Positions 9,126 to 64,000 are shown, counted from the stretch's first letter. The stretch is 64,000 nt of DNA from Acidobacteriota bacterium (GCA_018268955.1 JAFDVO010000012.1:128215-192214); one strand, 5' to 3'. The notes: generated from the sequence alone by a model not told the origin. Made by a program: numbers and translations.

Positions 9126-9261
9126 TCACGTCTCCTCGTGACCGCAGCATATCGCGGGGGCGAGCCATCGCCACAACCTCGTCAGTAGCGCGCGCTGGCG
9201 ATTGCGTACCACAGTGTGCCTATACTGGGCTGGAGTTCGTTCGGGAACGAACCTGAGCCCT

Positions 9262-9651: not shown

Positions 9652-9670
9652 ATCCACCCCGCCACCACGA

Positions 9671-44300: not shown

Positions 44301-44309
44301 GGTCTGATT

Positions 44310-50209: not shown

Positions 50210-52052
50210 CCGGCCTGAACCGGAGCTGGGCCCCCAGGTTCCGGTAGTCCATGTTCCCCGGCTCGAGCAGGTGCGGCACGAACCCCTCCGTCGAGTGCGT
50301 CACCAGCAGGTAGTTGTAGTCCCCGAATCCCCGCACGCCTGACGCCGGCACGTTGAAGTACGCGACCTTCTTCGGCTGCAGCGCCACCCGGACCGGCGTG
50401 CTCCCCAGTGAGATCGTGATCACCGTGGGCACCGGAGACTCGGCCTCGAATTGCACGTACTGCACCGGGAACGCGGTGCGCATGATGATCTCCGACCGAC
50501 CGCTTCCCGAGATCCACATGCCGTTCGGTTCCGGCGGCCACGAATTCTGATCGAGGTGGTACAGCAGGACGCCGGGATCGGTGCGGTACTGCACGTGCCC
50601 GCGAAGCGGCTGCGCCAGGCGCACCGGCAGGTCGTTCGCCATCGTCAACTCGACGGGGAGCCGACGGGCGGGTCCTTTCTCCATGGGGAGAAACGGGAAC
50701 TTGGCCGCGACGAACGGGTTGATGAGCATCTTGGCGGTGAACAGCGCACCACCCACCCACGCCAACACCCCTGGGGTCAGTGACACTCCTGGCGGGATCA
50801 GGAACAGCAGCACCGGATAGGCCGTGAAGAAGTACCGATTGCCGGGCGGACCGCCGCCGCCGCTCCAGGTCCACGGCAGCAGGATCAGCAGTCCGAGGGC
50901 GGCGGCAACCACCGCGCCGAAGGCGAGCAGGCGCCACGCCTGCACGCGCGCCTCGCGTGACAGCGCCCACGCGACAATGGCGACCACACCGGGGAAGAAG
51001 TACGGGACGAAGCCGAAGTGCCGGCCGATGAGGAAGTACTCGACGTTGTGCGCGAAGCGGAACGGCGCGTCCTCTGAGCGCAGGACCTCCTGTGGCGTGG
51101 ACGTATCTGTCGTGACCATGCCGCCACGGCGTTCCCACGTCCCGGTGCCGTCAGGCGCGTCGAACGGGAAGCTCGCGTAGAACGTCTTGCGATCGCCGCC
51201 CTGATAGTTGAACTCTCCCGTCACCACGGCGTTCAGGCCGAACAGCGCGCACGCCACGACGACGGCCACGAACCCGGCGACGAACCCGTGCACCCACCGG
51301 CGCCGCCACCAGGCGAGCAGGACGATCGGCGCGACGAGCACCGCCGTGGGCAGCGGCTTCGAGTACGTGCCGAGCCCAAGGATCACAGCCGCGGCGAGCG
51401 TCGTCCATGGCCGCGCCAACACGGAGTCGGAACGCACTTCCTTGTAGAGCCAGAGGAAGTAGGCCGTCAGGACCAGCGTGAAGTTGAAGATCTCCGGCAT
51501 GAGGAACACGCCGTAGACCGGCAGGATCGACGCGCCAAGGAACGCGGTCGTGAGTGCGGCCGCACTCGACGGCGTGCGCTGCGCGGCGAGGAAGAGATAG
51601 GCGCAGACACCCGAGAGGGCAATCAGCACGGCGTGGAAGAGCAGGATGCCGTTGACGCCGAAGAACCGCACGAACGGCGCGACCATGACCGAATAGGCCA
51701 TCGCCTTCCCGAAGTAGAGCCGGTTGCGGTTCGGATCCTCGCGCTTGAGGATGCGGACGAAGGGGAACGCACTCGTGCCCCGAATCCGCATCACCTTGCC
51801 GCGCTTCAGGAAGATGCCGTCGGGCCCGCTGTGGTAGATGCCGGCAAACCGCTCGAGGTCCTTGCGCTCGTACTGGAGGTCCCCGTCATAGGCTGCGCTC
51901 AACGCCGCCATGATGTAAGTCGCCTCGTCGCTCTTCAGGCCGTACGTCGTCCGGGGCACGTCGATCGCAAGCGCCGCAGCGGCCATGGCGACGAAGAGCA
52001 CGAGGCCGAGCACCGCGGCACCGCGATGGCTCACCGGTCGGTCCGTGGTCAT
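50166..52052 (-). CDS. GT-C-type polytopic glycosyltransferase (ArnT/PMT, GT39/83-like) with a C-terminal beta-rich domain
   Basis: First periplasmic loop carries the acidic motif YGLKSDEATYIMAA. About 11+ TM helices, then a ~190-aa soluble C-terminus. 4-nt overlap with the upstream GT4. Confidence 0.7.
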   Translation of the reverse strand: MTTDRPVSHRGAAVLGLVLFVAMAAAALAIDVPRTTYGLKSDEATYIMAALSAAYDGDLQYERKDLERFAGIYHSGPDGIFLKRGKVMRIRGTSAFPFVRILKREDPNRNRLYFGKAMAYSVMVAPFVRFFGVNGILLFHAVLIALSGVCAYLFLAAQRTPSSAAALTTAFLGASILPVYGVFLMPEIFNFTLVLTAYFLWLYKEVRSDSVLARPWTTLAAAVILGLGTYSKPLPTAVLVAPIVLLAWWRRRWVHGFVAGFVAVVVACALFGLNAVVTGEFNYQGGDRKTFYASFPFDAPDGTGTWERRGGMVTTDTSTPQEVLRSEDAPFRFAHNVEYFLIGRHFGFVPYFFPGVVAIVAWALSREARVQAWRLLAFGAVVAAALGLLILLPWTWSGGGGPPGNRYFFTAYPVLLFLIPPGVSLTPGVLAWVGGALFTAKMLINPFVAAKFPFLPMEKGPARRLPVELTMANDLPVRLAQPLRGHVQYRTDPGVLLYHLDQNSWPPEPNGMWISGSGRSEIIMRTAFPVQYVQFEAESPVPTVITISLGSTPVRVALQPKKVAYFNVPASGVRGFGDYNYLLVTHSTEGFVPHLLEPGNMDYRNLGAQLRFRPVTPTEASGGTTLPK

Positions 52053-53464: not shown

Positions 53465-54595
53465 ATGCGAAAGTGCACGCGACTGCTGTGGCTCCCGCTC
53501 CTCCTGGGGTTGGGTGGCTGCGAACTCACGAAGACAGAGAATCCCCTCAGCCCGTCGGTCGCCGGACCGATTGCGGGCGTTGACATCTCGGCTCCCAAGC
53601 TCCTCGAGCCTGCCTCCGGCGCGCTCATCTCGGGCGACCGGCAGCCCATCACCCTGCTGATCGAGAACGCCTCATCGACCGGGCAACGGCCGCTCAACTA
53701 CTCGTTCGAGGTCTCGACCGACCCCTCCTTCTCGAACAAGGTGTTCCAGCGTGACGGGATCTCGCCTGGGGACAACGGGCGCACGGCACTGACGCTGCCG
53801 AACGCCCTCGGGTCAGGACGCGGGTACTACTGGCGTTCACGGGCGCAGGACGGCGCAAACACCGGCCCCTTTTCCGCTCCGGTCGGCTTCAACATCTTCA
53901 CGCCGGTTGCGTTCGACAAGCCGGTCCCGATCTCGCCGGTGGCGAACGCCAAGGTCAGCAGCTACACGCCTGAATTCCGCTTTGCCAACGCGCCGCGCCA
54001 GGGCTCTCCGAGCCTCGTGAGCTACGTCATCGAGGTCTCCACCAACAGCGCGTTCGCGGGAATCATCGCGGCGTGGCAGTTCCCCGAGCAGGCCAACGAA
54101 ACCAAGTTCACCGCGGCCTCCGGCCTGCCGCCTTCATCTCAACTCTACTGGCGGGTGCGCGCCTTCGAAGGCGGCGCACTGGGCCCCTGGTCCGACACGG
54201 CCTCGTTCGTCACGCCGACACCGGTGGCGCCTCCCAGTGGCGGCGGCGGCACGGGCGCGGGTGCGGCCTGCTCGAATACGAGCCAGCTCGGCATCGTGAC
54301 CTGTCGCCGGAACCAGTTCACCGGTCACATGGACGCGGGCCAGGTCATCGTCTTCCTGAAGGGCATCGCGAGCGACCTGAACAAGGCTGGCACCTGGGGC
54401 ACGGGCTACGGCCTGCTGCGCAAGAGCAGCGGCTCGAGCTGCGGCGGGTACTCGTGCGACATCATCTGCCAGGGGTCGGGCACGTCGCAGAAGCAGTACG
54501 ACGTGCTGATCGACTCCGACGGCACGCAGGGTCCGATCTGGGGCGGCCCGAAGGTCTACCCGGACATCCGCATGGACTCCTGCGACGTGCCGTAG
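53465..54595 (+). CDS. Lipoprotein with two ~100-aa Ig/FN3-like modules and a Cys-rich C-terminal domain
   Basis: Lipobox LLLGLGGC. Two internal repeats end in YYWRSRAQDGANTGPFSAPVGFNIFTP and LYWRVRAFEGGALGPWSDTASFVTPTP. C-terminal ~115 aa contain 6 Cys. Start at ATG 53465. Confidence 0.75.
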   Translation: MRKCTRLLWLPLLLGLGGCELTKTENPLSPSVAGPIAGVDISAPKLLEPASGALISGDRQPITLLIENASSTGQRPLNYSFEVSTDPSFSNKVFQRDGISPGDNGRTALTLPNALGSGRGYYWRSRAQDGANTGPFSAPVGFNIFTPVAFDKPVPISPVANAKVSSYTPEFRFANAPRQGSPSLVSYVIEVSTNSAFAGIIAAWQFPEQANETKFTAASGLPPSSQLYWRVRAFEGGALGPWSDTASFVTPTPVAPPSGGGGTGAGAACSNTSQLGIVTCRRNQFTGHMDAGQVIVFLKGIASDLNKAGTWGTGYGLLRKSSGSSCGGYSCDIICQGSGTSQKQYDVLIDSDGTQGPIWGGPKVYPDIRMDSCDVP

Positions 54596-55600: not shown

Positions 55601-56686
55601 ATGCACGGACGCACGTACCTGGCGACCGGCGCCGCGGTGATGCTCAGTTTGACCATCGCCTGCAGCCGTAGCGCCTCGACCCCGGTGACCCCGACGAGTT
55701 CAGCCAAAGCGTCAACGGATGCGGCCGCCGCCGCGGACGGCTCCACGCTGAAAGTCTCCGCCCCGACGCCCACGTCCCCGATCAATAACGACGTCACCGC
55801 AGATCTGACGCCGACCCTCGTCGCCTCGGCGTCGACTGGCAAGTACGCGCAGGGTTCCGTGGCGTACGACTTCGAGCTGTACAACGGCGACAACGTGAAG
55901 ATCCAGACACTGGTGCTGTCGGGCCCGAGTTGGAAGGTCAGCGCGCTCGAGTACGACAAGCCATACAAGTGGCGCGTGCGCGCCACCTCGGACAACGCCT
56001 ACGGGCCGTGGTCTGACTTCGCCTCCTTCAAGACGCCCGAAGGGCGCGGCTACATCCGCGGCAACGAGCTGTACGACCCGCTCACCAACGGTCCCTCGAC
56101 GATCATCACCGCCGCGAACGACGTGACCTGGATTCCCGGGCAGGGCGTGCGCCTCAACGGCCAGGAGAGCTACGTCGAGTGGCGCCTGCAGACGCCGCTC
56201 ACCGATGGCGAGTTCTCCGTCATCATCACCAACCTCGGCAACAGCAACGAGCAGTGGAAGACGAAGGTGATGAGCATGATGGCCGGCGACGGGGTCAACG
56301 TCACCGACAACGCGTTCCGCTTCACGGCGGACCGGCGCAATGCGGATTCCGGCGGCACGGTGCGCTACACGCTCCGTTCACGCGGCGTTGACGCGGGCGA
56401 GCCGAACGCGGGCGGCATGACGTGGAGCCGCGCGAAGCTCTATCTCTGGCGCTTCACGTGGATCAACGGCAGCTCACGGTTGAGCGTGCAGGATGGGGGT
56501 TCCGCTGGCGCGACGGTGAAGTCGGTAGGTGCCAGCTACAAAGCTCCGTACCTGCCCAACCCGCACGTCATCAGGCTCGGGTCCGTCGGTGGGCGCGGCG
56601 GTCCGGAAACGCTTCCCGGCGCGATCTTCCGCAACGTCTGGGTGTCCGCCAACCCGCGGCCCGCGTTCCCGAACGACAACCCCTAG
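55601..56686 (+). CDS. Lipoprotein with one Ig/FN3-like module (paralogous to 53465..54595) plus a ConA/LamG-like C-terminal domain
   Basis: SD AAGGAG, lipobox LSLTIAC, and an S/T/P linker. The module ends PYKWRVRATSDNAYGPWSDFASFKTPEG. The C-terminal ~230 aa are beta-rich (LYLWRFTWINGSSRLSVQDGG). Confidence 0.75.
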   Translation: MHGRTYLATGAAVMLSLTIACSRSASTPVTPTSSAKASTDAAAAADGSTLKVSAPTPTSPINNDVTADLTPTLVASASTGKYAQGSVAYDFELYNGDNVKIQTLVLSGPSWKVSALEYDKPYKWRVRATSDNAYGPWSDFASFKTPEGRGYIRGNELYDPLTNGPSTIITAANDVTWIPGQGVRLNGQESYVEWRLQTPLTDGEFSVIITNLGNSNEQWKTKVMSMMAGDGVNVTDNAFRFTADRRNADSGGTVRYTLRSRGVDAGEPNAGGMTWSRAKLYLWRFTWINGSSRLSVQDGGSAGATVKSVGASYKAPYLPNPHVIRLGSVGGRGGPETLPGAIFRNVWVSANPRPAFPNDNP

Positions 56687-56695: not shown

Positions 56696-57700
56696 TTGCC
56701 GGGTCGCCCACGGGCGGCCCGGCACCCGTGTCCAGCCGTGTCTCTCCGCCCGATTGGGCGCATCCTTCGACCGCTCGTCGCGGTCCTGCTCACTGTGTAC
56801 GTCCTCTGGCGCGCCAGCCCATCCGCCGTGCTTCGTGCCGGGGCCGGCACTGACCTTCGCTGGATTGGCCTCGCCATCCTGCTGGTGGTCATCGACCGCG
56901 TGCTGATGGCGTACCGGTGGATCGTGCTGCTCTGCCCGATCGACGACGCATCGCGCCCGCCGATGGGAGCGGTGCTCCGCATCTTCTTCGTGAGCACGTT
57001 CGCCGGGACGTTCCTGCCCGCCAGCATCGGTGGGGACATCGTTCGCGCGTACGGTCTGTCCCAACTGAACGTCGCGCCAGGACAGGCGGTCGCGTCGGTA
57101 CTTATGGATCGGCTCCTCGGCGTCGTCTCGATCCTTGTCGTCGGCGCGGCGGGCCTGTTCTTCGCGCGAACAGGCGATCTCGCTTCGACCCGCGCGATCA
57201 CCCTGTCGCTCCTCGTCGGCGCCGCCGGATCGCTCGCCGCCGCGTCGATCATCTTCAGCGAGCGCGCGGCGGCACTGGCGCAGTGGGTGGCGCTGCGCAT
57301 CCCGGTTGCGGCGATCCGGACGATCGGCGCAGAACTGACGCGCGCCACTCGCGCCTACGGCGCCTTCCACGCCGAACTGGTGAACGTCCTCGCCGGGTCG
57401 ATCGCGGTGCAGGTGCTGCGCATCATCCAGGCCTGGTGTCTCGGCCGCGCGCTCGGCATCGAGGCGCCACTCGCGATCTACTTCGGGTTGATCCCGCTCA
57501 TCCTGCTCGTCATGCTGTTGCCCGTGAGCATCAATGGCATCGGGACGAGCCAGATGGGATTCGTCTGGTTCTTCGGGCGGGCGGGCGTAGCGGAGCCCCA
57601 GGCGTTCGCCCTGTCCGTGCTCTTCGTCGCGCTCGGCGTGATTGGAAACCTGCCGGGCGGGCTGCTCTACGCCTTCGGTCCCCGCCCACCCCGCACATGA
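56696..57700 (+). CDS. Flippase-like / LPG-synthase-TM (UPF0104) membrane protein, copy 2
   Basis: YRWIVLL..., IFFVSTFAGTFLPASIGGDIVRAYGL is the same hallmark as copy 1. The start is uncertain (TTG 56696 or GTG 56738). The stop overlaps the next start (ATGA). Confidence 0.75.
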   Translation: MPGRPRAARHPCPAVSLRPIGRILRPLVAVLLTVYVLWRASPSAVLRAGAGTDLRWIGLAILLVVIDRVLMAYRWIVLLCPIDDASRPPMGAVLRIFFVSTFAGTFLPASIGGDIVRAYGLSQLNVAPGQAVASVLMDRLLGVVSILVVGAAGLFFARTGDLASTRAITLSLLVGAAGSLAAASIIFSERAAALAQWVALRIPVAAIRTIGAELTRATRAYGAFHAELVNVLAGSIAVQVLRIIQAWCLGRALGIEAPLAIYFGLIPLILLVMLLPVSINGIGTSQMGFVWFFGRAGVAEPQAFALSVLFVALGVIGNLPGGLLYAFGPRPPRT

Positions 57701-59757
57701 GCCGCCTTGCTGCTGTCGCGGCCGCCCTCGTCGCGGCTGGTGTTCCCGCAACGCTGCTGAGCCTCCAGGCACCGGTCGCGGCGTTCGCGTACTTCGGTGT
57801 GTACCTGCTGGCGCTGCTGCCCGGACTGCCTGTGGGCTTCCTGCTCTTCGGCCGACGGCAGGCCGCAGGGTGGATCGCTGGCGCGCTCATCGGCTACGCG
57901 ACCTCCGCGCTGGCGGTATGGGCCGCGGTGTTCACCCGGCATGGGACGACAGCCGGCCTCGTCCTCGCGTGGAGCGCGGGCCTGGTCGCCCTCTCCGCAC
58001 TGGCCGCGGTGATGGCTTCGAGACGTCGAGCCCCGCTTGTCGTTCTGCCGGTGTGGACCACCCGCCACACGGCCGCCCTGCTGCTGACGCTCCTGATGGT
58101 GCCTGCCCTGGTCGGGCGCCCCTTTGCGCGGATTGGCAGCGTCGACGAGAACGGCGACGCGCGGTACCGCGCCTACTTCACCGCCGACTTCGTGTGGCAC
58201 ATGGCCATGACGGCGGAACTGCAGAAGCACGACACGCCGCCCGTCAACCCGTACCTCGCGCCCGAGCGGATCCACTACTACTGGACCTACTTCCTGGTGC
58301 CGTCCGCCGCGGCGCCGATCGCCCACGCGGATGTTGCGCTCGCGCTCGAGGTGAACGCGCTCGGGACCGCTCTGCTGCTGGTATCCGCCATCTTCCTCAC
58401 GGCATGGGCCGCGCTGCCGGCCTACCCCTTCGCCGTCGCAGCCGCTGTCACGTTCGTGGTCCTCGGGGCGAGCGCGGAAGGCCTTGCCGCCATGGCGTAC
58501 GTCACGCAGCAGGGGCAGGGCCTCTCAGGCGTCCGGGACCTGAACGTGGACGCGCTCTCTCGCGGCGTGGGCGGCTTGCGGATCGACAACCTGCCGCGGG
58601 CCATGTGGAACACGCCGCAGCACTCGATGTCCTACGCACTGGGACTGACCGCGCTGCCAGTCGCCATCGTCGCGGGGCTGAGCGCTGACATGCTTGCGAT
58701 CCTCGTCGCCGGCGTCGCGCTCGGCGCGTCAGTGGCGTTCAACCCGTTCGTGGGCGCTCTCATCTGCGCGGTGTACGGACTCACCATCCTCGGCGAGTGG
58801 TGGCGGGTGCGCGGTTCGTTTGCACGCGTCCTGAAACACGGCCTCGCCGTAATCCCCGTGGTCGCAGCGCTCGGATGGGCGAGCCTCAACCAGGTCGCCG
58901 ACGGCGCTGGCAGCACACTGCACTTCGGCATGTACGGTCCGGCCAGGAACGCTCCTGCGATCGCCTTCGCGCTCTCCTTCGGTCCACTGCTCGTTCCGAT
59001 GGTGCTTGGATGGCTGCGTAATGCTGACGTGCCGTTCTCGCGCGTGTGGCCCGCCACTGCTGGCGTCGTGCTCGTCACCCTTGTCATGCATCTCGTCACC
59101 ATGACGGTCGACGAGTTCTGGATCGGGTTCCGCACGGGGCACTTGCTGTTCGTCTTCGTCCCGCCGCTGGTCGCGCGCGGCCTGGTGTGGGCGTGGCAGC
59201 GGCCGCAGCGTGCGTGGGCACGCGTCGCGCTCGTGGGGGCCTTTGCTGTCGGCAGCCTGACGACGGCGATCGACGCGTTCAACGCGCAGGACGTGGAGAA
59301 CACGCACGAAGGGATCGGCCTGCGCTGGACGCTGCATCTCACGCCCGAGCAGCAGGCGGGCCTGGCCTGGCTGCGCGCGAATACTCCGCGGACCGCCGTC
59401 GTGCAGGCCGAACCGGTGGTGCGCGGTCGCGACGCGTGGAGCCTCATCCCCTCCTTCGCGGAGCGACGGATGGCCGCAGGCCTTCCGATTTCCCTGATGC
59501 ACGTGCCGGAGTACGACACCCGCTCGGACGACGTGCAGAAGATCTTCGCGTATGCGGATGCCGAGCGGGCCTGGCGTTCGGCGCAGTCACTCGGGATTGA
59601 CTACCTGTGGCTCGACGCGACCGACCGTGCCGCTTACCCGAACGCCGCGAAATTTGCGGATCATCCGGACTGGTTCTCGCCCGTGTTCACCGCGGGCGAC
59701 GTGGCCATATACCGCGTCAGCCGCGACGATAACGCCAGAACGTCCGGAACCCGATGA
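57697..59757 (+). CDS. Large polytopic membrane protein (~686 aa, 14+ TM) with a C-terminal soluble domain; GT-C-like or polymerase-like, family not recognised
   Basis: ATG 57697 (MSRLAAVAAALVAAG...). A conserved-looking loop reads YRAYFTADFVWHMAMTAELQKHDTPPVNPYLAPERIHYYWTYF. The C-terminal ~170 aa are soluble. The upstream 260 codons of the track ORF overlap copy 2 in another frame. Confidence 0.7.
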   Translation: MSRLAAVAAALVAAGVPATLLSLQAPVAAFAYFGVYLLALLPGLPVGFLLFGRRQAAGWIAGALIGYATSALAVWAAVFTRHGTTAGLVLAWSAGLVALSALAAVMASRRRAPLVVLPVWTTRHTAALLLTLLMVPALVGRPFARIGSVDENGDARYRAYFTADFVWHMAMTAELQKHDTPPVNPYLAPERIHYYWTYFLVPSAAAPIAHADVALALEVNALGTALLLVSAIFLTAWAALPAYPFAVAAAVTFVVLGASAEGLAAMAYVTQQGQGLSGVRDLNVDALSRGVGGLRIDNLPRAMWNTPQHSMSYALGLTALPVAIVAGLSADMLAILVAGVALGASVAFNPFVGALICAVYGLTILGEWWRVRGSFARVLKHGLAVIPVVAALGWASLNQVADGAGSTLHFGMYGPARNAPAIAFALSFGPLLVPMVLGWLRNADVPFSRVWPATAGVVLVTLVMHLVTMTVDEFWIGFRTGHLLFVFVPPLVARGLVWAWQRPQRAWARVALVGAFAVGSLTTAIDAFNAQDVENTHEGIGLRWTLHLTPEQQAGLAWLRANTPRTAVVQAEPVVRGRDAWSLIPSFAERRMAAGLPISLMHVPEYDTRSDDVQKIFAYADAERAWRSAQSLGIDYLWLDATDRAAYPNAAKFADHPDWFSPVFTAGDVAIYRVSRDDNARTSGTR

Positions 59758-60409
59758 ACCAGTCGCGGAGACCAATCTTCTTGCCTTCCGCCTTCGTCCT
59801 GGGCGCGTAGCGAATCGGCACCTCCGCGATGGTCGCGCCGCGCGTGACCATCCGTGCGGTGATCTCGTGATCGAGTTCGAACCCGCTGGTCTCCAGTGGA
59901 AGCGCTGCGAGTTCCGCACGACGAAACAGCTTGTACGCGGTGACCGTGTCCGTGAGCCACTGACCGGTGAACGCCAGCGCGATCAGGCTCAGGCTGCGGC
60001 CGCCGAGGTACGCCGCGAGCGACTGGTTGGCGTGGCGCCCGGACTGCAGGTAGCGACTGCCGTAGACCACCGTGCCGCGCCCTCCAAGCAGCGCATCGAG
60101 CATCGGTGCGTAGTCGTTCGGGTCGTACTCGAGGTCGGCGTCCTGGATGATGAGGAACTCGCCGGTCGCCCGCGCGATGCCTGCGCGTACCGCTCCGCCC
60201 TTGCCACCATTCTTTGGGAGACGGACCAGCACCACGTCTGGCTCCGCCTCGACGATCGCCGCCGTCCGATCGCGCGAGCAGTCGTCGACGACGATGATCT
60301 CCTTCGTCAGCGAGAAGCGGGAGAGGTCGACAGCCTTGATCTGCTTCAGCAGCGTGCCGATGAAGCGCTCTTCGTTGTACGCGGGGATGACAATTGACAG
60401 GACGGGCAC
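59717..60409 (-). CDS. Polyprenol-phosphate glycosyltransferase, GT2 (DPM1/GtrB/ArnC-like)
   Basis: LSIVIPAYNEERFI, VVDDCSRDRT, KNGGKGGAVRAGI and DxD in IIQDADLEYDP. A C-terminal amphipathic/TM tail follows. Confidence 0.9.
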   Translation of the reverse strand: MPVLSIVIPAYNEERFIGTLLKQIKAVDLSRFSLTKEIIVVDDCSRDRTAAIVEAEPDVVLVRLPKNGGKGGAVRAGIARATGEFLIIQDADLEYDPNDYAPMLDALLGGRGTVVYGSRYLQSGRHANQSLAAYLGGRSLSLIALAFTGQWLTDTVTAYKLFRRAELAALPLETSGFELDHEITARMVTRGATIAEVPIRYAPRTKAEGKKIGLRDWFIGFRTFWRYRRG

Positions 60410-60410
60410 A

Positions 60411-61265
60411 TCAACTCCGGGCGCGGGCCTGCAGGTAGCGTTCGACCGCCGCGAGGTCCTCAGGCGTGTTCACGCCCACCGACTCCTCGCGGTCCACGCA
60501 AGGGAACGTGACGACACCGCCACGAGCATCGGCAAACGGGATGAACGGCAGGAAGTTCCGCTCGCCGGTCTCCTCTCCCGTGCCCGCTCCCGTGGCGAAG
60601 TCCATCAGGTCGTCGACGAACGCGCGTCGCGACAGGCTGAACAGCCCCATGTCGCTCTCGCCGACCGCCGGCATGGCGTCCCCTTCGCGGCGATGCAGCA
60701 CGCGGACGATCCGCTGATCGGTGCCTCGCTGCAGGTGGATGTACGGCGACGCGGTCGTGCAGGTCGGCATCACGATGGGCGCATCAGCGTGCGCCGCTGA
60801 GAGTTCGGCGAGCCGCTCGACGGTGCGCGGATGCACACCCACTTGATCGCACCAGGTGATCCACACGTGGGCAGCAGGACTCGCCTCCACCACCGGTCGC
60901 GCCAGCAGGATGGCGTCGAGCATGCCGGTTGGCGCCTCCTGCACGACGACGGTCGCCGGAACAGCCTTCATCGCGAGATGCTCCGAGAGCGCTGTCCGCG
61001 ACTGGGGATGTGCCACGACGACGACGTGCTGGATCCACGGCAGGTACAGCTCCAGCAGCCAGTCGATCATTGGCCGGCCGAGCACCGGCACCAACACCTT
61101 CGGCAGCGCTGAGCGCAGCCGCGAGCCCATGCCGGCCGCAGGGATGACCAGCGTCCGCGGTTCGAGGAGATCATCGGGTCGGGACAGAGCTGGGTCTCCG
61201 TTCTTCGGATGCGGCGGCGGTCGTGTCTGACGGGGCCGTGAAGCGCCCCGCCACCAGGGCGCCAA
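60411..61265 (-). CDS. Nucleotidyltransferase (NTP_transferase / MobA-like fold)
   Basis: G-loop LVIPAAGMGSRLRSALPKVLVPVLGRPMIDWL. The start is uncertain. The only in-frame start upstream of the G-loop is TTG 61265, which overlaps the preceding gene by 95 nt; otherwise a CTG start is needed. Confidence 0.75.
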   Translation of the reverse strand: MAPWWRGASRPRQTRPPPHPKNGDPALSRPDDLLEPRTLVIPAAGMGSRLRSALPKVLVPVLGRPMIDWLLELYLPWIQHVVVVAHPQSRTALSEHLAMKAVPATVVVQEAPTGMLDAILLARPVVEASPAAHVWITWCDQVGVHPRTVERLAELSAAHADAPIVMPTCTTASPYIHLQRGTDQRIVRVLHRREGDAMPAVGESDMGLFSLSRRAFVDDLMDFATGAGTGEETGERNFLPFIPFADARGGVVTFPCVDREESVGVNTPEDLAAVERYLQARARS

Positions 61266-63147
61266 GCGCCTGCACCCCTTCGAGCACGGTTGTGCGTTTC
61301 ACGAGGTCCGGCGAGATCGGCAGGAACTGCACCGGGATTTCGAGGATGTCCGCCTTGCGGCGCAACAGGCGCGACAGGAGGTGTTCGTTGACGCGCGTGT
61401 GCGTGAGCGGCACGTCGAGCGCGATGACGTCGCGCGCGCGCACGGCGCGGACCGCCGACAGCGTGTCGGAGATGTACCGTCCGAACAACGCCAGGGTCGC
61501 CAGGCTCAGCACGTGGCTTCCGACGTAGCTGGCCCATCCGAGCAATGCCTTGCGGCGATACCGAAACTGGTAGGACTGTTCGATGTCCCGCACCGACAGG
61601 CGCCGGCTGCCCCAGACAGCATCGAGCCGCCCCGTGGACAGGCTCGACACCAGACCCGCGACGTCCTCGCCCCGGTACATCCCAGAGGACTCGAACAGCA
61701 CCACGTAGTCGTACCGCCCTTCGTGGACCGCCGCCCGGAACTGGGCATCCACGCTGCTCGTGTCCGCACGCAGGGCGTGCAACGGAAACGGCAGCGACGA
61801 CACGAACCCATCGTCCAGCGGCGCCCCTTCATAGAAGACCGCGGGCTCTATCGGCAAATCGGTCATGCCACCGCGGATCATCTCGATGATCGACTGCACC
61901 AGCTTGTTCGGCGACCCGCCGTCGTGCAGGAAGATCGCCACCCGCTGCGGGTCGTGCCGGTGCAGCAGCGAGCTGATGAACGGACCCAGGATCTTCCCGG
62001 CATCGTGCCGGCCGGTGACGCCATCCTCGTAGTTCGCGATGCGGACGAGGCGTGGGTCCTCGAGGGTCTCGATCTGCCCGAGCGGCACATACGGAGCCCC
62101 GGTCTCGGCGCTTCCGGGATCGTTCACGAAGTAGTGCGTGATCAGGCAGGGGGTCGGCGTATGTCGGCTCCCCTTTTCCTGCAGATAGAAGCGGGCGCGC
62201 TCGATGATGTCCACGGCCGTACTGCCGGCGATCTCCGCGTCGGCCTGGATGTTGGTGATGAGCAGCTTGATCGCCCGCAGGTTCTTCGCGATCACGTCGC
62301 TCAACCCCGGGGTCAGGTACGAGGGGAAGAGGCTCGAGTGCTGCGTGCCGGGCGCGTAGATGATGAGGTCCGCCTCCGCGATCTTCGGCACCAGTCGGGG
62401 ATTGAGGGCCGGGTGCACCTCGCGCCCGCGGAATAGCGCACGTGCCGCGTCCGGTCCACCGAGTCCCTGCCGCTCGCCCGGTGCCAGCGGCGGATCGATC
62501 AGGAAGATGTCCTCGATCCGGTTCTGCCCCGCAGCGCCCACGATCTCTTCCTCGCTGCCAAGTACCGTCCCGTCGGCCCCGATGGCGACAAGGTGAGCGT
62601 TCGTCCCGTCGGTGACGTTCTCGACGATGCCCACCGGAAGGCCGACGAGCCGGCAGTAGTCGTCGACGGCGTCATTGAATCGCCGCCCACACAGCAGGAA
62701 CGAACCGGCAAACACGAGATTCCCCACGCTGCAGTCGTCGAAGTCGAACGGCCGCCCCGTGCGCGCGAGTTCCGCGGCGAACGCCTCGACACGCTCGGCG
62801 AGCGCGGGATAGGCGCTGGCCTTGCTGCGGACCGTTGCGAGCGCCAGGTCCTGGGCCAGACCGTCCGGCAGCCGTGCGTCGAGAACCTCGATGAGCGCCG
62901 GCGCACTGGTCCCGAGTTCGAGCGCGAGCCGCGAGGCGTTCTTGCGGAAATCGGACGGCCCAAGTGCGTCGCCCAGGAACCGTCGCACTTCCCCGGTCGA
63001 CTTCCCGTCGTCGTAGCCGTTGATCGCGAGCGTGAGCTGGATGCGCGGGTCGCGGAGGAGCTGCCTCGAGAGCATGCTCGATCCGCGGCCGCCGGAGAAG
63101 AGCACCACGCGCGCGCCGGGCGTGGTGACGGTGTGGCTCTGGGCCAT
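61171..63147 (-). CDS. CofD/YvcK-like (UPF0052) domain fused to a degenerate GT2-like C-terminal region
   Basis: N-terminus: VVLFSGGRGSSMLSRQLL, LAINGYDDGKSTGEVRR, GPSDFRKNASRLA, IIYAPGTQHSSLFPSYL (UPF0052 pattern). C-terminus: VVLFESSGMYRGEDV, AVWGSRRL, DTLSAVRAVRA, ILEIPVQF (GT2-like, with no DxD). Confidence 0.7.
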   Translation of the reverse strand: MAQSHTVTTPGARVVLFSGGRGSSMLSRQLLRDPRIQLTLAINGYDDGKSTGEVRRFLGDALGPSDFRKNASRLALELGTSAPALIEVLDARLPDGLAQDLALATVRSKASAYPALAERVEAFAAELARTGRPFDFDDCSVGNLVFAGSFLLCGRRFNDAVDDYCRLVGLPVGIVENVTDGTNAHLVAIGADGTVLGSEEEIVGAAGQNRIEDIFLIDPPLAPGERQGLGGPDAARALFRGREVHPALNPRLVPKIAEADLIIYAPGTQHSSLFPSYLTPGLSDVIAKNLRAIKLLITNIQADAEIAGSTAVDIIERARFYLQEKGSRHTPTPCLITHYFVNDPGSAETGAPYVPLGQIETLEDPRLVRIANYEDGVTGRHDAGKILGPFISSLLHRHDPQRVAIFLHDGGSPNKLVQSIIEMIRGGMTDLPIEPAVFYEGAPLDDGFVSSLPFPLHALRADTSSVDAQFRAAVHEGRYDYVVLFESSGMYRGEDVAGLVSSLSTGRLDAVWGSRRLSVRDIEQSYQFRYRRKALLGWASYVGSHVLSLATLALFGRYISDTLSAVRAVRARDVIALDVPLTHTRVNEHLLSRLLRRKADILEIPVQFLPISPDLVKRTTVLEGVQALGALVAGRFTAPSDTTAAASEERRPSSVPTR

Positions 63148-63159
63148 CGAGGAGAGGCG

Positions 63160-64000
63160 CTATTCGGAGAGCGAGCCCGCGTGTGCCGGGATGCGGGCCG
63201 GCACCGCCTTGCGCTTCTCCTTCGTCGCACGCACGAGGAACTTGACGTACGGCACCACCTGCTTCACCGCCGCCACGTTCATCTGGCAGGGGCTCAGGCA
63301 GGTCGGGCACTGCGTGTCGCGGATCCAGTCACGATGCTGCTGGCTGGTCGCGCGAAAGTAGAGCTCCTCGGGGTCTTCGGTGAGCACATTGCCGAGAATC
63401 TGGCTGTTCTCGCAGAAGTAGAGGCCACCATCCGGGTTCAGCATGATGCCCTGCGTCTGGAACGGGCACGGCGCCTCGCGGTGGTAGCCGTTGCCGATCA
63501 TGTCGGCATAGTGCATGTGGATGTAGTTCTGCCCGTCCATCATCGGGTCCATCCGCACGCGCTCGAGGAAGAACTGCCGCAGCCGCTCCTCGTCGCGGCC
63601 GATTGGCTTCACGGCCCCGGCCGCCAGCTCGCCATTGCCGAGCATCGGGTCCGAGAAGCGGACCATGTTGAAGACGATGTCGAGCCCTTCCTTCTTGGCC
63701 CAGGCAAGGATGTTCTCGCAGTCGTCGATGTTCTTGTTGAAGATCGTGGCCGACACGCCGAAGTTGAACGGCACGCGCTGCTGCAGCTCGCGCATCGCGG
63801 CAATGGTCTTGTTGGCCTTCTCGAAGGCCCCCTTCACGTGCCGCACCTCGTTGTGCATCTCGCCGACGCCGTCGATGGAGACGCGGGTGCTGAAGATGAC
63901 GCCTTTCTCGGCGCAGTACTCCGCCACCTTCGTCAGCATCGGGATCGCACGATGCGGCGTCAGCCCCGTGGTGTTGATGCCGTACTTCCGAATCTTCGGC
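63160..64000 (-). CDS. Radical SAM protein with a SPASM domain (C-terminal part; gene continues beyond the right edge)
   Basis: The frame stays open to 64000 (PKIRKYGINTTGLTPHRAIPMLTK...). Radical-SAM barrel-type segments STRVSIDGVGEMHNEVR and SATIFNKN are present. SPASM cysteines: CPFQTQGIMLNPDGGLYFCENS...CPTCLSPC. Confidence 0.75.
   Translation of the reverse strand, partial: PKIRKYGINTTGLTPHRAIPMLTKVAEYCAEKGVIFSTRVSIDGVGEMHNEVRHVKGAFEKANKTIAAMRELQQRVPFNFGVSATIFNKNIDDCENILAWAKKEGLDIVFNMVRFSDPMLGNGELAAGAVKPIGRDEERLRQFFLERVRMDPMMDGQNYIHMHYADMIGNGYHREAPCPFQTQGIMLNPDGGLYFCENSQILGNVLTEDPEELYFRATSQQHRDWIRDTQCPTCLSPCQMNVAAVKQVVPYVKFLVRATKEKRKAVPARIPAHAGSLSE

What the first reader, a model, noticed from the sequence alone, without database searches (positions are those of the whole stretch)
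59717..64000. Operon of radical SAM/SPASM, a CofD/YvcK-like::GT2-like fusion, a nucleotidyltransferase and a polyprenol-P GT2: CofC/CofD-like logic inside a glycan locus
Seen in sequence: four minus-strand genes are packed with a 12-nt gap, an overlap and a 1-nt gap.

The 658-aa protein is the oddity.
- Its first ~400 aa carry UPF0052 (CofD / YvcK-GlmR) hallmarks: FSGGRGS, INGYDDGKSTG, GPSDFRKN, APGTQHSSLFPS.
- Its last ~230 aa look like the distal half of a DPM1/GtrB-type GT2.
- Where the DxD motif is expected, it reads FESSGMY.

Established knowledge: CofD transfers a phospho-alcohol from a nucleotide-activated donor. That donor is made by the MobA-fold nucleotidyltransferase CofC. YvcK/GlmR binds UDP-sugars.

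A nucleotidyltransferase lies immediately downstream here. However, no other F420 biosynthesis gene is visible, and the context is an envelope-glycan locus.

Inference: a nucleotide-activated phospho-substituent or sugar-phosphate, possibly modified by the radical SAM enzyme, is transferred to a polyprenol-linked or envelope acceptor. I do not recognise this as a described pathway.
Basis: partly seen in the sequence, partly recalled or inferred. Interest (0 to 1): 0.75.

Follow-up and report, generated by a model that had tools for sequence, protein, structure and literature searches.

The report
YvcK/CofD-like glycan-lipid loading cassette
Four tightly packed genes in an uncultured soil-type Acidobacterium belong to a widely conserved but unstudied gene set that probably prepares a lipid-linked sugar for decorating the cell envelope, and its central protein joins a YvcK/CofD-type domain of unknown chemistry to a disabled sugar-transferase domain.

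Summary
Four minus-strand genes are real and packed: radical SAM/SPASM (cut by the window end), a 658-aa CofD-family::GT-A fusion, a GlmU-like nucleotidyltransferase and a DPMS/ArnC-like GT2.

- **Not an artefact.** The identical fusion protein lies on 12 contigs, and more than 150 orthologues share its length.
- **Not F420 synthesis.** No F420 genes lie beyond position 64000 or in the window.
- **N-domain.** It resembles YvcK/GlmR more than CofD.
- **C-domain.** It is a full GT-A fold that has lost every donor-binding motif in this clade. Distant relatives keep a working GT2.
- **Fusions.** Elsewhere the parts are joined as NTP-transferase::CofD-like::GT2. In a Nanoarchaeota MAG the order is HAD::NTP::CofD-like::GT2.
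- **Distribution.** The core trio recurs in Acidobacteriota, Bdellovibrionota, Magnetococcales, SAR11/SAR116 and DPANN.
- **Partners.** It travels with radical SAM enzymes, a methyltransferase, a flippase-type protein and GT-C transferases. I show the 686-aa neighbour is GT-C.

**Best reading:** this is the cytoplasmic front end of a polyprenyl-phosphate-linked envelope glycosylation system. What the YvcK/CofD-like domain does (phosphodiester transfer or nucleotide-sugar sensing) is unresolved. I found no paper on it.

The parts
63160..64000 (-). 3' 840 nt of a radical SAM/SPASM-type gene. The full protein is 387 aa, and its 5' 323 nt lie beyond the window end.
   Evidence: Full length recovered from L001:3085-4248, which matches the window end exactly. 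PF04055 scores 46.8 bits; SPASM scores 17 bits, below its cut-off. A CxxxCxxC motif lies at residues 45-52, with five C-terminal Cys at 286, 304, 339, 342 and 346. No NCBIfam family comes near its cut-off. Orthologues lie within 10 kb of the fusion in 24 of 38 loci.
61954..63147 (-). Fusion protein, N-domain (about aa 1-398). It is a YvcK/CofD-superfamily (PF01933) domain carrying a family-specific helical insertion.
   Evidence: PF01933 scores 64.5 bits. TIGR04357 scores 77 bits and TIGR01826 (YvcK) 48.5 bits, both far below their cut-offs. Foldseek gives 2hzb/2o2z/2ppv at E 4e-15, TM 0.81, against FbiA/CofD at E 1e-6, TM 0.57. Most of the 38 invariant residues lie here, including G19 G20 G22, D46, S50 T51 G52, LGPSD 62-66, PGT 266-268, N299 and D303.
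61171..61953 (-). Fusion protein, C-domain (about aa 399-658 plus the stop codon). It is a GT-A/GT2 fold of the DPMS/ArnC/GtrB type with its donor-binding motifs lost, i.e. a pseudo-GT2.
   Evidence: AF2 pLDDT 90, pTM 0.83. Foldseek hits ArnC at 5e-8, also GtrB and GpgS. BLASTP gives 28% identity to the neighbouring GT2 at 6e-14. FESSGMY replaces D-x-E/D in 153 of 153 close relatives, while 61 of 71 distant relatives keep the motif. R515, which corresponds to PfDPMS R117, is invariant. The A-loop Arg is replaced by I611.
60411..61265 (-). GlmU-N-domain-like sugar-phosphate nucleotidyltransferase. It is 284 aa from TTG 61265. Public gene calls use ATG 61130, giving 239 aa.
   Evidence: PF12804 scores 64.9 bits. 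GlmU models align over residues 37-283 at about 1e-21. PDB GlmU hits reach 1.7e-9 across the whole uridyltransferase domain; Q and D of the nucleotide/metal site are kept, but the GlcNAc-contacting E154/N169 equivalents differ. Orthologues start 2-6 codons before LVIPAAG. The same family is fused N-terminally to CofD-like proteins elsewhere.
59717..60409 (-). Stand-alone polyprenyl-phosphate glycosyltransferase-type GT2 (230 aa, no TM segment), here called type A.
   Evidence: PF00535 scores 108 bits. PDB hits are PfDPMS 5mlz at 3.8e-17, also ArnC and GtrB. DAD 90-92, GSR 117-119 and PRTKAEGKK 203-211 are all present. A gene of this kind lies within 10 kb of the fusion in 37 of 38 loci. It is 47% and 38% identical to the partners in L075 and L074, and the type is 48-62% conserved across phyla.
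57697..59757 (+). GT-C-fold membrane glycosyltransferase (686 aa, about 13 TM). It converges on the GT2 gene with a 41-nt 3' overlap.
   Evidence: No Pfam hit. AF2 pLDDT 92, pTM 0.93. All 18 Foldseek hits at E<=1e-3 are GT-C enzymes, including AftA at 5e-7, DPY19, AglB/STT3 and ALG12. Present in 22 of 38 loci.
56738..57700 (+). LPG_synthase_TM (MprF flippase-domain family) membrane protein of 320 aa. Its stop overlaps the start of the GT-C gene (ATGA).
   Evidence: PF03706 scores 118.6 bits, with about 7 hydrophobic segments. Present in 25 of 38 loci. A GtrA-family protein follows the stand-alone GT2 in loci L075 and L078.
55601..56686 (+). Lipoprotein with a Ser/Thr/Pro-rich linker and Ig/fn3-like repeats. 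It is the first gene of the flippase/GT-C operon and a possible acceptor, but this is speculative.
   Evidence: Sequence shows the lipobox LTIAC. There is a weak Ig_Rha78A_N hit. Paralogues recur in 14 of 38 loci.

Best explanation
These four genes are the cytoplasmic front end of a polyprenyl-phosphate-linked envelope glycosylation cassette.

**Step 1 (inferred from family).** The GlmU-like nucleotidyltransferase makes an NDP-activated sugar or phospho-compound. The nucleotide is probably a pyrimidine, and the substrate is not plain GlcNAc-1-P.

**Step 2 (inferred from family and motifs).** The stand-alone DPMS/ArnC-like GT2 loads a sugar onto polyprenyl phosphate at the inner face of the membrane.

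**Step 3 (the open step).** The 658-aa protein acts on the same intermediates.
- Its C-domain can no longer bind NDP-sugar or metal. It keeps the polyprenyl-phosphate-side arginine and the interface helices, so it most likely docks the lipid-linked intermediate or the partner GT2.
- Its YvcK/CofD-like N-domain keeps a glycine-rich loop, an invariant Asp pair region (D46/D47, D66) and the nucleotide-contacting Asn (N299).
- I favour a CofD-type reaction. A hydroxyl attacks the beta-phosphate of the NDP-activated donor, NMP leaves, and a phosphodiester-linked substituent ends up on the lipid-linked sugar.

**Step 4 (inferred).** The radical SAM/SPASM enzyme tailors the sugar or substituent. In sister lineages a class-I methyltransferase, or in some a B12-radical SAM, sits next to the fusion instead.

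**Step 5 (fold and family shown, substrates inferred).** The product is flipped by the LPG_synthase_TM protein. The GT-C enzymes then transfer it to an envelope acceptor. These are the 686-aa neighbour and the AftB-like 669-aa protein just past the window end.
For: **The genes are real.** The identical fusion lies on 12 contigs. There are 1748 homologues and 1730 cluster representatives.

**Core trio**
- In 38 loci with at least 8 kb of flank on each side, GT2 lies within 10 kb in 37 and NTP in 30. In 4 further loci a lower-identity copy (33-34%) sits elsewhere in the cluster, giving about 34.
- Natural fusions NTP::CofD::GT2 and HAD::NTP::CofD::GT2 exist.
- The fused NTP domain is orthologous to the neighbour gene here.
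- The same gene set occurs in a Bdellovibrionota MAG and a Magnetococcales MAG.
- It also occurs in SAR116 and Pelagibacteraceae genomes and in Nanoarchaeota.

**Lipid-linked route**
- The GT2 matches PfDPMS at 3.8e-17, and also ArnC and GtrB.
- PF03706 is present here, and GtrA follows the stand-alone GT2 in L075/L078.
- The 686-aa protein has a GT-C fold.
- The 669-aa protein matches AftB at 5e-16.
- PMT-family genes lie in L075, L078 and L079.

**Pseudo-GT2**
- Motif loss is complete in 153 of 153 close relatives, yet FESSGMYRGE itself is conserved.
- R515, the equivalent of Dol-P-binding R117 of PfDPMS, is invariant (PMC5526996).

**CofD-like chemistry is plausible**
- FbiA uses two Asp to hold the metal, and a substrate hydroxyl attacks the beta-phosphate of the NDP donor (PMC7253369).
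- D46/D47 align with the DD pair of Bacillus halodurans YvcK. That pair is the conserved D40/D41 that Pensinger et al. predicted to be catalytic and mutated, together with N198, in a GlmR variant with impaired activity (PMC10128056).
- N299 aligns with the nucleotide-contacting N217 of B. halodurans YvcK.
- All four proteins lack TM segments, so they are cytoplasmic.
Against: - No assay or ligand-bound structure exists for any member of this branch.
- The N-domain is structurally nearer YvcK/GlmR, whose best-established property is UDP-sugar binding and regulation rather than phosphotransfer (PMC5482804).
- The equivalence of D46/D66 to FbiA D45/D57 rests on motif analogy and my memory of the FbiA sequence. 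It is not a structural superposition.
- The nucleotidyltransferase is GlmU-like, not CofC-like. A plain NDP-sugar feeding the GT2 would explain its presence without any phosphotransfer step.
- The identities of the sugar, the nucleotide and the acceptor are unknown.
- The radical SAM gene is absent from 14 of 38 loci within 10 kb. It is adjacent to the fusion in only 7.
- The large membrane proteins of the distant lineages (L074, L075, L076) show no sequence similarity to the 686-aa protein.
Confidence: 0.4

Rival explanations
1. The YvcK-like domain is a non-catalytic nucleotide-sugar sensor or scaffold. It binds the NDP-sugar made by the neighbouring GlmU-like enzyme. Through the pseudo-GT2 domain it docks to the active GT2, and it tunes or channels flux into the lipid-linked sugar, as GlmR does for GlmS.
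For: The N-domain is closest in fold to YvcK/GlmR at TM 0.81. B. subtilis YvcK binds UDP-Glc and UDP-GlcNAc, and the nucleotide-contacting Asn is conserved here as N299. The partner enzyme is GlmU-like. A catalytically dead GT2 domain fused to it suits a scaffold or pseudoenzyme role.
Against: The 38 invariant residues lie mostly in motifs that line the CofD/FbiA active site, which is more than a binding domain usually needs. The domain order NTP::CofD-like::GT2 in one polypeptide looks like consecutive enzymes. The DD pair is conserved. It is among the three residues changed in the Listeria GlmR mutant that lost uridyltransferase activity.
Confidence: 0.3
2. The trio makes a soluble cytoplasmic phosphodiester or glycoside, such as a compatible solute or cofactor-like molecule. 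This would follow the logic of glucosyl-3-phosphoglycerate synthase plus phosphatase, or of CofC/CofD. The membrane proteins nearby would be unrelated neighbours.
For: GpgS structures are among the fold and sequence matches of both GT2 units. A HAD phosphatase/mutase is fused or adjacent in some lineages. All four proteins are soluble.
Against: Flippase-type proteins and GT-C transferases accompany the trio in unrelated phyla, even though the individual membrane proteins are not homologous to one another. The best matches of the GT2 are polyprenyl-phosphate transferases, and the Dol-P-binding Arg is kept. The surroundings are GT4s, Wzx and ABC-2 exporters.
Confidence: 0.08
3. The YvcK-like domain is an accessory nucleotidyltransferase, the activity reported for Listeria GlmR. 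It would duplicate or broaden the activity of the neighbouring GlmU-like enzyme.
For: The DD pair that corresponds to Listeria GlmR D40/D41 is conserved here as D46/D47.
Against: A dedicated nucleotidyltransferase is almost always encoded next to it or fused to it, which makes a second one redundant. By my residue counting of the B. halodurans alignment, with an assumed 3-residue numbering offset, the third Listeria residue (N198) falls on Ser276 in this family. This mapping is uncertain.
Confidence: 0.05
4. This is ordinary coenzyme F420 biosynthesis, with a CofC-like and a CofD-like enzyme, that happens to sit next to glycan genes.
For: Only the PF01933 hit and a MobA-fold neighbour support it.
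Against: No CofD equivalog model hits. The fold is nearer YvcK. There are no cofG/H/E/fbiC genes in the 64-kb window or in 10 kb beyond it. The partner is GlmU-like, and PF01983 (CofC) is not hit. The protein carries a GT2 domain.
Confidence: 0.02
5. The radical SAM/SPASM gene is a peptide (RiPP) maturase and is only by accident the first gene of this operon.
For: Most NCBIfam near-hits are SPASM peptide maturases, though all fall far below their cut-offs.
Against: Only 44 nt separate its start from the divergent GT-C gene, and 12 nt separate its stop from the fusion, so no precursor ORF fits. Orthologues travel with the flippase/GT-C genes in 24 of 38 loci. Unrelated radical SAM enzymes sit in the same cassettes in other phyla.
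Confidence: 0.05

Closest known systems
YvcK/GlmR (UPF0052) of Firmicutes and Actinobacteria
   Same: The fold matches (Foldseek E 4e-15, TM 0.81). Shared features are the glycine-rich N-terminal loop, the DDGxS(T/S)G motif, the PGD/PSD-x-R-(K/N) motif, the PG(S/T)xxSS motif and the nucleotide-contacting Asn. Both are functionally associated with UDP-sugar metabolism.
   Different: Identity is about 20%, and the YvcK model scores 48.5 bits against a cut-off of 196. This family has an extra helical insertion of about 90 residues and a fused GT-A domain. It has no yvcJ/whiA neighbours. Its constant partners are a GlmU-like nucleotidyltransferase and a DPMS-like GT2.
CofC/CofD (FbiD/FbiA) pair of coenzyme F420 biosynthesis
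   Same: A PF01933 protein is coupled to a MobA/GlmU-superfamily nucleotidyltransferase, to the point of gene fusion. Acidic residues are conserved in the motifs where FbiA holds its catalytic metal.
   Different: There are no F420 genes and no CofD or CofC equivalog hits. The fold is more distant at TM 0.57. The nucleotidyltransferase has a full sugar-nucleotide-type domain. The context is envelope glycosylation.
Three-component lipid-linked glycosylation systems (GtrA/GtrB/GtrC; ArnC/ArnT; PpgS/Rv3779; CsbB/GtcA/YfhO)
   Same: The parts are a DPMS/GtrB/ArnC-type GT2, a small flippase-type membrane protein and a GT-C transferase. A GtrA-family protein follows the stand-alone GT2 in related loci.
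   Different: These known systems have no YvcK/CofD-like protein, no dedicated nucleotidyltransferase fused to the pathway, no pseudo-GT2 and no radical SAM enzyme.
Dolichyl-phosphate mannose synthase (PfDPMS, 5mlz)
   Same: It is the best solved-structure match of the stand-alone GT2 at 3.8e-17. The DAD motif, the GSR arginine and the A-loop arginine are all conserved. The fusion's C-domain keeps the GSR arginine.
   Different: The stand-alone GT2 has no TM domain. The fusion's C-domain lacks the DxD motif, the base-binding Asp, the beta1 Glu and the A-loop Arg.

Membership tests
CofD / FbiA (2-phospho-L-lactate transferase, F420 biosynthesis) | Match to the PF01933 domain above the gathering score | tested here: met
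   64.5 bits against a cut-off of 30, residues 14-319, profile positions 1-236 of 290.
CofD / FbiA (2-phospho-L-lactate transferase, F420 biosynthesis) | Equivalog-level sequence match to true CofD | tested here: not met
   No CofD equivalog appears among NCBIfam hits at E<=0.1. Only TIGR04357, TIGR01826 and AglJ are listed.
CofD / FbiA (2-phospho-L-lactate transferase, F420 biosynthesis) | Genomic association with other F420 genes (cofC, cofG/H or fbiC, cofE) | tested here: not met
   None lie in the window or in 10 kb beyond its end. None lie in the related loci whose called genes carry Pfam annotation.
CofD / FbiA (2-phospho-L-lactate transferase, F420 biosynthesis) | Two metal-binding aspartates (FbiA D45, D57) | tested here: inconclusive
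   D46, D47 and D66 are invariant or nearly so, in motifs analogous to NxGDD and PD(L)D (PMC7253369). No residue-level structural superposition was available.
YvcK / GlmR (UPF0052) | YvcK fold | tested here: met
   Foldseek hits 2hzb, 2o2z, 2ppv and 2q7x at E 4e-15 to 2e-11, with target TM 0.71-0.81.
YvcK / GlmR (UPF0052) | Score above the NCBIfam YvcK subfamily cut-off | tested here: not met
   TIGR01826 scores 48.5 bits against a cut-off of 196.
YvcK / GlmR (UPF0052) | Nucleotide-contacting residues of B. halodurans YvcK (T13, N217, Y264, R300) | tested here: inconclusive
   N217 aligns with invariant N299. T13 aligns with R21. Y264 and R300 fall outside the aligned stretch.
YvcK / GlmR (UPF0052) | yvcJ-yvcK-whiA gene context (recalled from my own knowledge of Firmicute and Actinobacterial genomes) | tested here: not met
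   The neighbours are rSAM, NTP-transferase, GT2, GT-C and a flippase-type protein.
GT2 polyprenyl-phosphate glycosyltransferase (DPMS/GtrB/ArnC type): fusion C-domain | GT-A fold | tested here: met
   Foldseek hits ArnC at 5e-8, also GtrB and GpgS. The model has pLDDT 90.
GT2 polyprenyl-phosphate glycosyltransferase (DPMS/GtrB/ArnC type): fusion C-domain | DxD metal/donor motif and the other donor-binding elements (beta1 N-E, base-binding Asp, A-loop Arg) | tested here: not met
   The motif reads E486-S-S488-G-M490, and I611 replaces the A-loop Arg. VAIFLHDGGSPNK and AVFYEGAPLD replace VSIIVPxLNE and EIIVVDGGSxD. PF00535 is not hit.
GT2 polyprenyl-phosphate glycosyltransferase (DPMS/GtrB/ArnC type): fusion C-domain | Acceptor-phosphate arginine (PfDPMS R117, GSR motif) | tested here: met
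   R515 is invariant in 46 of 46 aligned sequences. It was mapped through and PMC5526996.
GT2 polyprenyl-phosphate glycosyltransferase (DPMS/GtrB/ArnC type): stand-alone 230-aa gene | PF00535 hit, DxD, GSR arginine and A-loop arginine | tested here: met
   PF00535 scores 108 bits. D90-A-D92, R119 and R204 are present. PfDPMS matches at 3.8e-17. Enzyme activity and lipid acceptor were not tested.
CofC (2-phospho-L-lactate guanylyltransferase): 284-aa gene | Match to the CofC family rather than sugar-phosphate nucleotidyltransferases | tested here: not met
   Hits are PF12804 and IspD, with GlmU N-domain models aligned over residues 37-283. No CofC model is listed.
Radical SAM with SPASM/Twitch auxiliary domain | CxxxCxxC motif plus a C-terminal Cys-rich auxiliary-cluster domain | tested here: met
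   C45-x3-C49-x2-C52 is present, with C286, C304 and C339-x2-C342-x3-C346 downstream. PF04055 scores 46.8 bits. The SPASM model scores only 17 bits against a cut-off of 21.5, so the SPASM-versus-Twitch assignment is open.
GT-C glycosyltransferases: 686-aa neighbour | GT-C membrane fold | tested here: met
   AF2 pTM 0.93. All 18 significant Foldseek hits are GT-C enzymes. The donor lipid and the acceptor were not tested.

The most novel reading that the evidence does not exclude
The YvcK/CofD-like domain is a new class of transferase. It uses an NDP-activated donor made by its partner nucleotidyltransferase, a CofC/CofD-type two-enzyme logic. It puts a phosphodiester-linked group (a sugar-1-phosphate, alditol-phosphate or similar, further tailored by radical SAM or methyltransferase enzymes) onto a polyprenyl-phosphate-linked sugar. 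That sugar is then flipped and attached to the envelope. The cassette would be ancient and spread from DPANN archaea to Acidobacteriota and SAR11. It would give the first clear catalytic context for the enigmatic YvcK/GlmR branch of the superfamily.
Probability: 0.3. Interest if true: 0.8.

Novelty: new variant of a known kind. Interest (0 to 1): 0.6.

Why it matters
- **A natural experiment for the GlmR debate.** YvcK/GlmR proteins matter for cell-wall homeostasis and virulence in Firmicutes and mycobacteria, yet their biochemical activity is still disputed among regulator, UDP-sugar binder and accessory uridyltransferase. Here a sister branch of that family is hard-wired by gene fusion to a GlmU-like nucleotidyltransferase and a lipid-phosphate glycosyltransferase. 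That points to where such domains act.
- **A possible new chemistry.** If the domain is catalytic, it would define a new way of decorating lipid-linked glycans with phosphodiester-linked groups.
- **Ecological reach.** The organisms that carry it, including Vicinamibacteria, SAR11/SAR116 and DPANN, are abundant in soils and oceans and have almost uncharacterised surfaces.
- **A clean pseudoenzyme case.** The clade-specific, fully conserved loss of all donor-binding motifs in the fused GT2 shows an enzyme domain turned into a pseudoenzyme beside an intact paralogue.

Tried and rejected
- **Literature.** Full-text searches found nothing on this architecture. Terms tried were CofD + glycosyltransferase + radical SAM + nucleotidyltransferase; 'CofD-like'; 2-phospho-L-lactate transferase + polysaccharide gene cluster; UPF0052 + glycosyltransferase; and Vicinamibacteria + glycosyltransferase + radical SAM.
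- **F420 reading.** Rejected. No equivalog hit and no pathway genes.
- **Assembly or frameshift artefact.** Rejected.
- **The stand-alone GT2 as a simple replacement for the dead fused domain.** Rejected. Loci whose fused type-B domain is still intact also carry the stand-alone type-A gene. In the Nanoarchaeota protein the fused domain is itself type A, with no type B.
- **Homology among the large membrane proteins of different phyla.** No sequence similarity by BLASTP or by an HMM of the 686-aa family, so only an analogous role can be claimed.
- **Orthology of the radical SAM enzymes across phyla.** Identity is only 22-24%, so orthology is unproven.
- **Substrate of the nucleotidyltransferase.** The GlcNAc-contacting residues of GlmU are not conserved, so no sugar could be assigned.
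- **HAD domain.** It scores just under the beta-phosphoglucomutase family cut-off (146.5 against 153 bits). It also resembles sugar phosphatases and pyrophosphatases, so its role (mutase, phosphatase or PPi removal) stays open.
- **Residue-level mapping onto FbiA.** Not possible, because model coordinates and FbiA alignments were not available.

Full report
**What is in the sequence**

Four minus-strand ORFs occupy the region:
- GT2, 59717-60409, 230 aa.
- Nucleotidyltransferase, 60411-61265, 284 aa from a TTG start.
- The fusion, 61171-63147, 658 aa.
- A radical SAM gene from 63160 that runs off the window end.

Third-position GC of 0.83-0.93 marks them as real genes.

A longer public contig, L001, matches the window end exactly. 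It completes the radical SAM protein at 387 aa. Beyond position 64000 lie a divergent 669-aa membrane protein, a lipoprotein paralogue, a GDSL lipase, an 897-aa protein and an LPG_synthase_TM::methyltransferase protein. No F420 gene is among them.

The rest of the window holds housekeeping genes up to about 44 kb. After that come sugar epimerase, acetyltransferase, GT4, methyltransferase and GT-C-like genes.

Public gene calls start the nucleotidyltransferase at ATG 61130. That start removes the first strand and half of the G-x-G-x-R loop. In about 45 orthologues the start lies 2-6 codons before 'LVIPAAG'. In this strain only the upstream TTG keeps that segment.

**The fusion is real and conserved**

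- The identical 658-aa protein, named 'YvcK family protein [Acidobacteria bacterium]' in one source, lies on 12 contigs. The six places examined come from six different samples.
- A database search gives 1748 homologues. The best 120 all have about the same length.
- An exhaustive search of 50%-identity cluster representatives gives 1730 hits. The two-domain length of about 650-700 aa persists down to 27% identity.
- In one-genome-per-species data, 68 loci were found. Most are Vicinamibacteria MAGs, with a few labelled Gemmatimonadota, Deltaproteobacteria, Spirochaetales or Eisenbacteria.

**Domain identities**

*N-domain.* It hits PF01933 at 64.5 bits against a cut-off of 30. No curated subfamily accepts it. 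The GAK CofD-like model scores 77 against 340, and the YvcK model 48.5 against 196. No CofD equivalog appears.

The AlphaFold model is confident, with pLDDT 90.2 and pTM 0.83. Foldseek puts the N-domain nearest YvcK/UPF0052 structures at E 4e-15 and TM 0.81. FbiA/CofD is more distant at E 1e-6 and TM 0.57. The C-domain falls on ArnC, GtrB and GpgS at E 5e-8 and below.

In a 46-sequence alignment 38 columns are invariant, and almost all lie in the N-domain. They include:
- F17 and G19-G20-x-G22.
- N43-x-Y45-D46 (D47 in at least 90%), G48 and S50-T51-G52.
- L62-G-P-S-D66 and R68-K69.
- P266-G-T268 and S271-S272.
- N299 and D303.

D46/D47 align with the DD of the B. halodurans YvcK 'ADDGGSSG' motif. 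This is the conserved pair (D40/D41) that Pensinger et al. predicted to be catalytic in Listeria GlmR and mutated together with N198 (PMC10128056). N299 aligns with B. halodurans YvcK N217, a nucleotide-contacting residue. FbiA holds its catalytic metal with D45 and D57, and the acceptor hydroxyl attacks the beta-phosphate of the GDP-linked donor (PMC7253369). By motif analogy D46 and D66 sit in the corresponding places. I could not verify this by superposition.

*C-domain.* This is the most informative part.

Distant family members (about 27-35% identity) carry a bona fide PF00535 domain at 50-116 bits. They show the canonical motifs VSIIVPxLNE, EIIVVDGGSxD, GRG, FPSDGEY, GSR, SDPLT and PRTxxxGKK.

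In the window's clade every donor-side element is replaced. The sequences are VAIFLHDGGSPNK, AVFYEGAPLD, no GRG, FESSGMY, and I611 in place of the A-loop Arg.
- All 153 sequences at 45% identity or more have lost the D-x-E/D pair, yet 'LFESSGMYRGE' is itself almost invariant.
- Of 71 more distant sequences, 61 keep the pair.
- The remaining ten are lost or partial. Some of them read 'LTGDGxYR'.

I mapped these positions through the stand-alone GT2 onto P. furiosus DPMS (PMC5526996):
- The lost positions are the metal ligand D91, Q93, the A-loop R202, the base-binding Asp and the beta1 Glu.
- R117, which positions the dolichyl-phosphate, corresponds to the invariant R515.
- The amphipathic helices 519-555 are also retained.

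So the domain is under selection but cannot be a nucleotide-sugar-dependent transferase. It could still hold a polyprenyl-phosphate head group or pair with an active GT2.

**The partners**

*Nucleotidyltransferase.*
- It aligns with the whole uridyltransferase domain of GlmU (NCBIfam about 1e-21; PDB 1.7e-9) and has a GlmU-like 'AAGxGSRLxSxLPKVL' start.
- The Gln and Asp of the nucleotide/metal site are kept.
- The residues aligned with the GlcNAc-contacting E154 and N169 are His and Asp. The identity of those GlmU contact residues is recalled from my own knowledge of GlmU structures, not checked against a paper here.
- It is therefore a sugar-phosphate-type enzyme for an unidentified substrate, not a CofC.

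*Stand-alone GT2.*
- It is a complete DPMS/ArnC/GtrB-type enzyme (PfDPMS 3.8e-17) with DAD, GSR and the A-loop Arg, and it has no TM segment.
- It is a paralogue of the fused domain: 31% identity to an intact fused domain and 28% to the window's dead one.
- It is better conserved across phyla than the fusion itself, at 48-62%.

*Radical SAM protein.* It has CxxxCxxC and five C-terminal cysteines, but no curated family accepts it.

None of the four proteins has a TM segment.

**Gene-fusion and neighbourhood evidence**

Related proteins of 925-962 aa read NTP_transf_3::CofD::GT2. A 1148-aa protein from a Nanoarchaeota MAG reads HAD::NTP_transf_3::CofD::GT2. The fused NTP domains match the window's neighbour gene at 1e-24 to 1e-42 over its full length. 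The HAD is beta-phosphoglucomutase-family-like, at 146.5 bits against a cut-off of 153.

In 38 genome loci with at least 8 kb on each side, partners lie within 10 kb as follows:

| Partner | Loci of 38 |
|---|---|
| GT2 | 37 |
| NTP-transferase | 30, plus 4 with a lower-identity copy |
| LPG_synthase_TM protein | 25 |
| Radical SAM | 24 |
| 686-aa membrane protein | 22 |

The same set recurs in unrelated lineages:
- **Bdellovibrionota MAG:** PMT_2, radical SAM (B12-type by similarity), methyltransferase, HAD, NTP, CofD::GT2, GT2.
- **Magnetococcales MAG:** GT2, NTP, methyltransferase; then rSAM/SPASM, B12-rSAM, CofD::GT2.
- **Triple-fusion loci:** methyltransferase, HAD, the triple fusion, GT2, GtrA, a membrane protein of 549-578 aa; Wzx and PMT genes lie elsewhere in the same loci.
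- **SAR116:** rmlA, rmlC, epimerase, ABC-2 exporter, CofD::GT2, B12-type rSAM (by NCBIfam family matches), methyltransferase, NTP.
- **Pelagibacteraceae:** 702-aa protein, GT2, rSAM/SPASM; then NTP, GT2, CofD-like.
- **Nanoarchaeota:** GT2, rSAM/SPASM, rSAM, 670-aa protein, the four-domain fusion, epimerase, B12-rSAM, methyltransferase.

Further details:
- An orthologous class-I methyltransferase sits divergently upstream of the fusion in about 10 Vicinamibacteria-type loci, and elsewhere in the cluster in about 5 more. It is missing from the window's own subclade, where the radical SAM gene is the upstream neighbour.
- The Nanoarchaeota fusion carries the stand-alone type of GT2 ('IQDADLEYDP') and has no second GT2 domain.
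- The minimal conserved core is therefore NTP-transferase + YvcK/CofD-like + type-A GT2.

**The membrane side**

- The 686-aa protein converging on the GT2 gene has no Pfam hit. Its model (pLDDT 92, pTM 0.93) matches only GT-C enzymes: AftA, DPY19, AglB/STT3 and ALG12.
- Its start overlaps the stop of a PF03706 (MprF flippase-domain family) protein.
- The 669-aa protein just past the window end matches the AftB GT-C family at 5e-16.
- Another 628-aa GT-C-like protein lies at 50166-52052.

Together with the DPMS-like GT2 this reproduces the logic of GtrABC, ArnC/ArnT and PpgS/Rv3779-type systems. That comparison rests on established knowledge of those systems. In them, a sugar is loaded on polyprenyl phosphate in the cytoplasm, flipped, and transferred outside by a GT-C enzyme.

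**How it most likely works**

*Shown here:*
- The domain folds.
- The motif states.
- The fusions.
- The conserved neighbourhood.
- The absence of F420 genes.

*Inferred:*
- The nucleotidyltransferase supplies an NDP-activated compound.
- The stand-alone GT2 forms the polyprenyl-phosphate sugar.
- The fusion acts at that same membrane-surface step.
- The radical SAM, or in sister lineages the methyltransferase or B12-rSAM, tailors the group.
- The flippase-type protein and the GT-C enzymes deliver it to the envelope.

I put the system-level model at about 0.75.

For the YvcK/CofD-like domain I favour CofD-type phosphodiester transfer with NMP as leaving group. Including this step, I put the full model at 0.4. 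The reasons are the enzyme-like invariant site, the tight coupling to a nucleotidyltransferase as in CofC/CofD, and the domain order in the fusions.

A non-catalytic NDP-sugar sensor or scaffold role, as in GlmR, is nearly as likely (about 0.3). It fits the closer structural kinship to YvcK and the presence of a pseudoenzyme domain.

**Comparison and novelty**

The protein fails membership tests for CofD proper and for YvcK proper. Its C-domain fails the defining donor-motif test for an active GT2. It is a third, uncurated branch of the PF01933 superfamily.

Five full-text literature searches found nothing on this architecture. Public annotations say only 'CofD family' or 'YvcK family'.

I therefore class it as a new variant of a known kind, namely lipid-linked envelope glycosylation with an added YvcK/CofD-like module. 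There is a real chance (about 0.3) that it hides a new transferase chemistry.

The finding is not peculiar to this genome. Its value lies in the breadth of conservation and in the fusions, which make the function of a disputed protein family testable.

Noticed in passing
window 57697-59757 (+): A 686-aa protein with no Pfam hit is a confident GT-C-fold glycosyltransferase (AF2 pTM 0.93; Foldseek hits AftA, DPY19, STT3/AglB, ALG12). Its 3' end overlaps the 3' end of the GT2 gene by 41 nt in convergent orientation. Its ATG overlaps the stop of the upstream LPG_synthase_TM gene.
   Followed up: yes
window 55601-56686 (+) and 53465-54595 (+); also L001:1-828: These are paralogous lipoproteins (lipoboxes LTIAC and LGLGGC) with Ser/Thr/Pro-rich linkers followed by Ig/fn3-like repeats. 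One is the first gene of the flippase/GT-C operon, and paralogues recur in 14 of 38 related loci. They could be the glycosylation acceptors.
   Followed up: partly
window 61130-61265 (-): In this strain the nucleotidyltransferase has no ATG/GTG/TTG just before the conserved 'LVIPAAG' strand, where orthologues start. The closest relative, L007, has ATG where this strain has CCG. Only a TTG 45 codons upstream keeps the fold intact, and it overlaps the fusion gene by 95 nt. Public gene calls (239 aa) truncate the glycine-rich loop.
   Followed up: yes
L001:1031-3040 (just beyond window position 64000, divergent from the rSAM gene): A 669-aa membrane protein matches the AftB terminal arabinofuranosyltransferase (GT-C) family at E 5e-16 over its N-terminal 250 residues. 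Only 44 nt separate it from the radical SAM start.
   Followed up: partly
Loci L011, L013, L018, L029, L035, L038, L047, L060, L061 (about 8980-9970, minus strand); L039, L075, L078, L079, L080, L071: A conserved class-I methyltransferase (Methyltransf_23, about 300 aa, 38-49% identical across phyla) is a frequent partner of the fusion gene. It is absent from the window's own subclade, where the radical SAM/SPASM gene is the upstream neighbour instead.
   Followed up: partly
Loci L037, L042, L044, L045, L049, L055 (between the fusion and NTP genes); L075, L078, L079; fused in P0231: A HAD_2 hydrolase, beta-phosphoglucomutase-family-like, is a recurrent but not universal member of the cassette. 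Its role is undecided among mutase, phosphatase and pyrophosphate removal.
   Followed up: partly
window 50166-52052 (-) and 6161-9121 (-): Two further large membrane proteins have weak GT-C-type signatures. One resembles the LA_3751/LA_3752 putative glycosyltransferase family at 2e-5. The other resembles the TMEM260-like O-mannosyltransferase family at 6e-18. The genome seems rich in lipid-linked-donor glycosyltransferases.
   Followed up: no
window 32934-34394 (-) and 43440-44309 (-): A LarC-type nickel-insertion protein (PF01969, 465 bits) and a PP-loop ATPase lie in the same window. They may be parts of a nickel-pincer cofactor pathway and are unrelated to the finding.
   Followed up: no
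window 11341-12567 (+): A T6SS Tle1-like phospholipase effector domain protein (PF09994, 238 bits) sits among housekeeping genes. The neighbouring ORFs I scanned with Pfam are not T6SS genes, but the adjoining small ORFs were not scanned.
   Followed up: no
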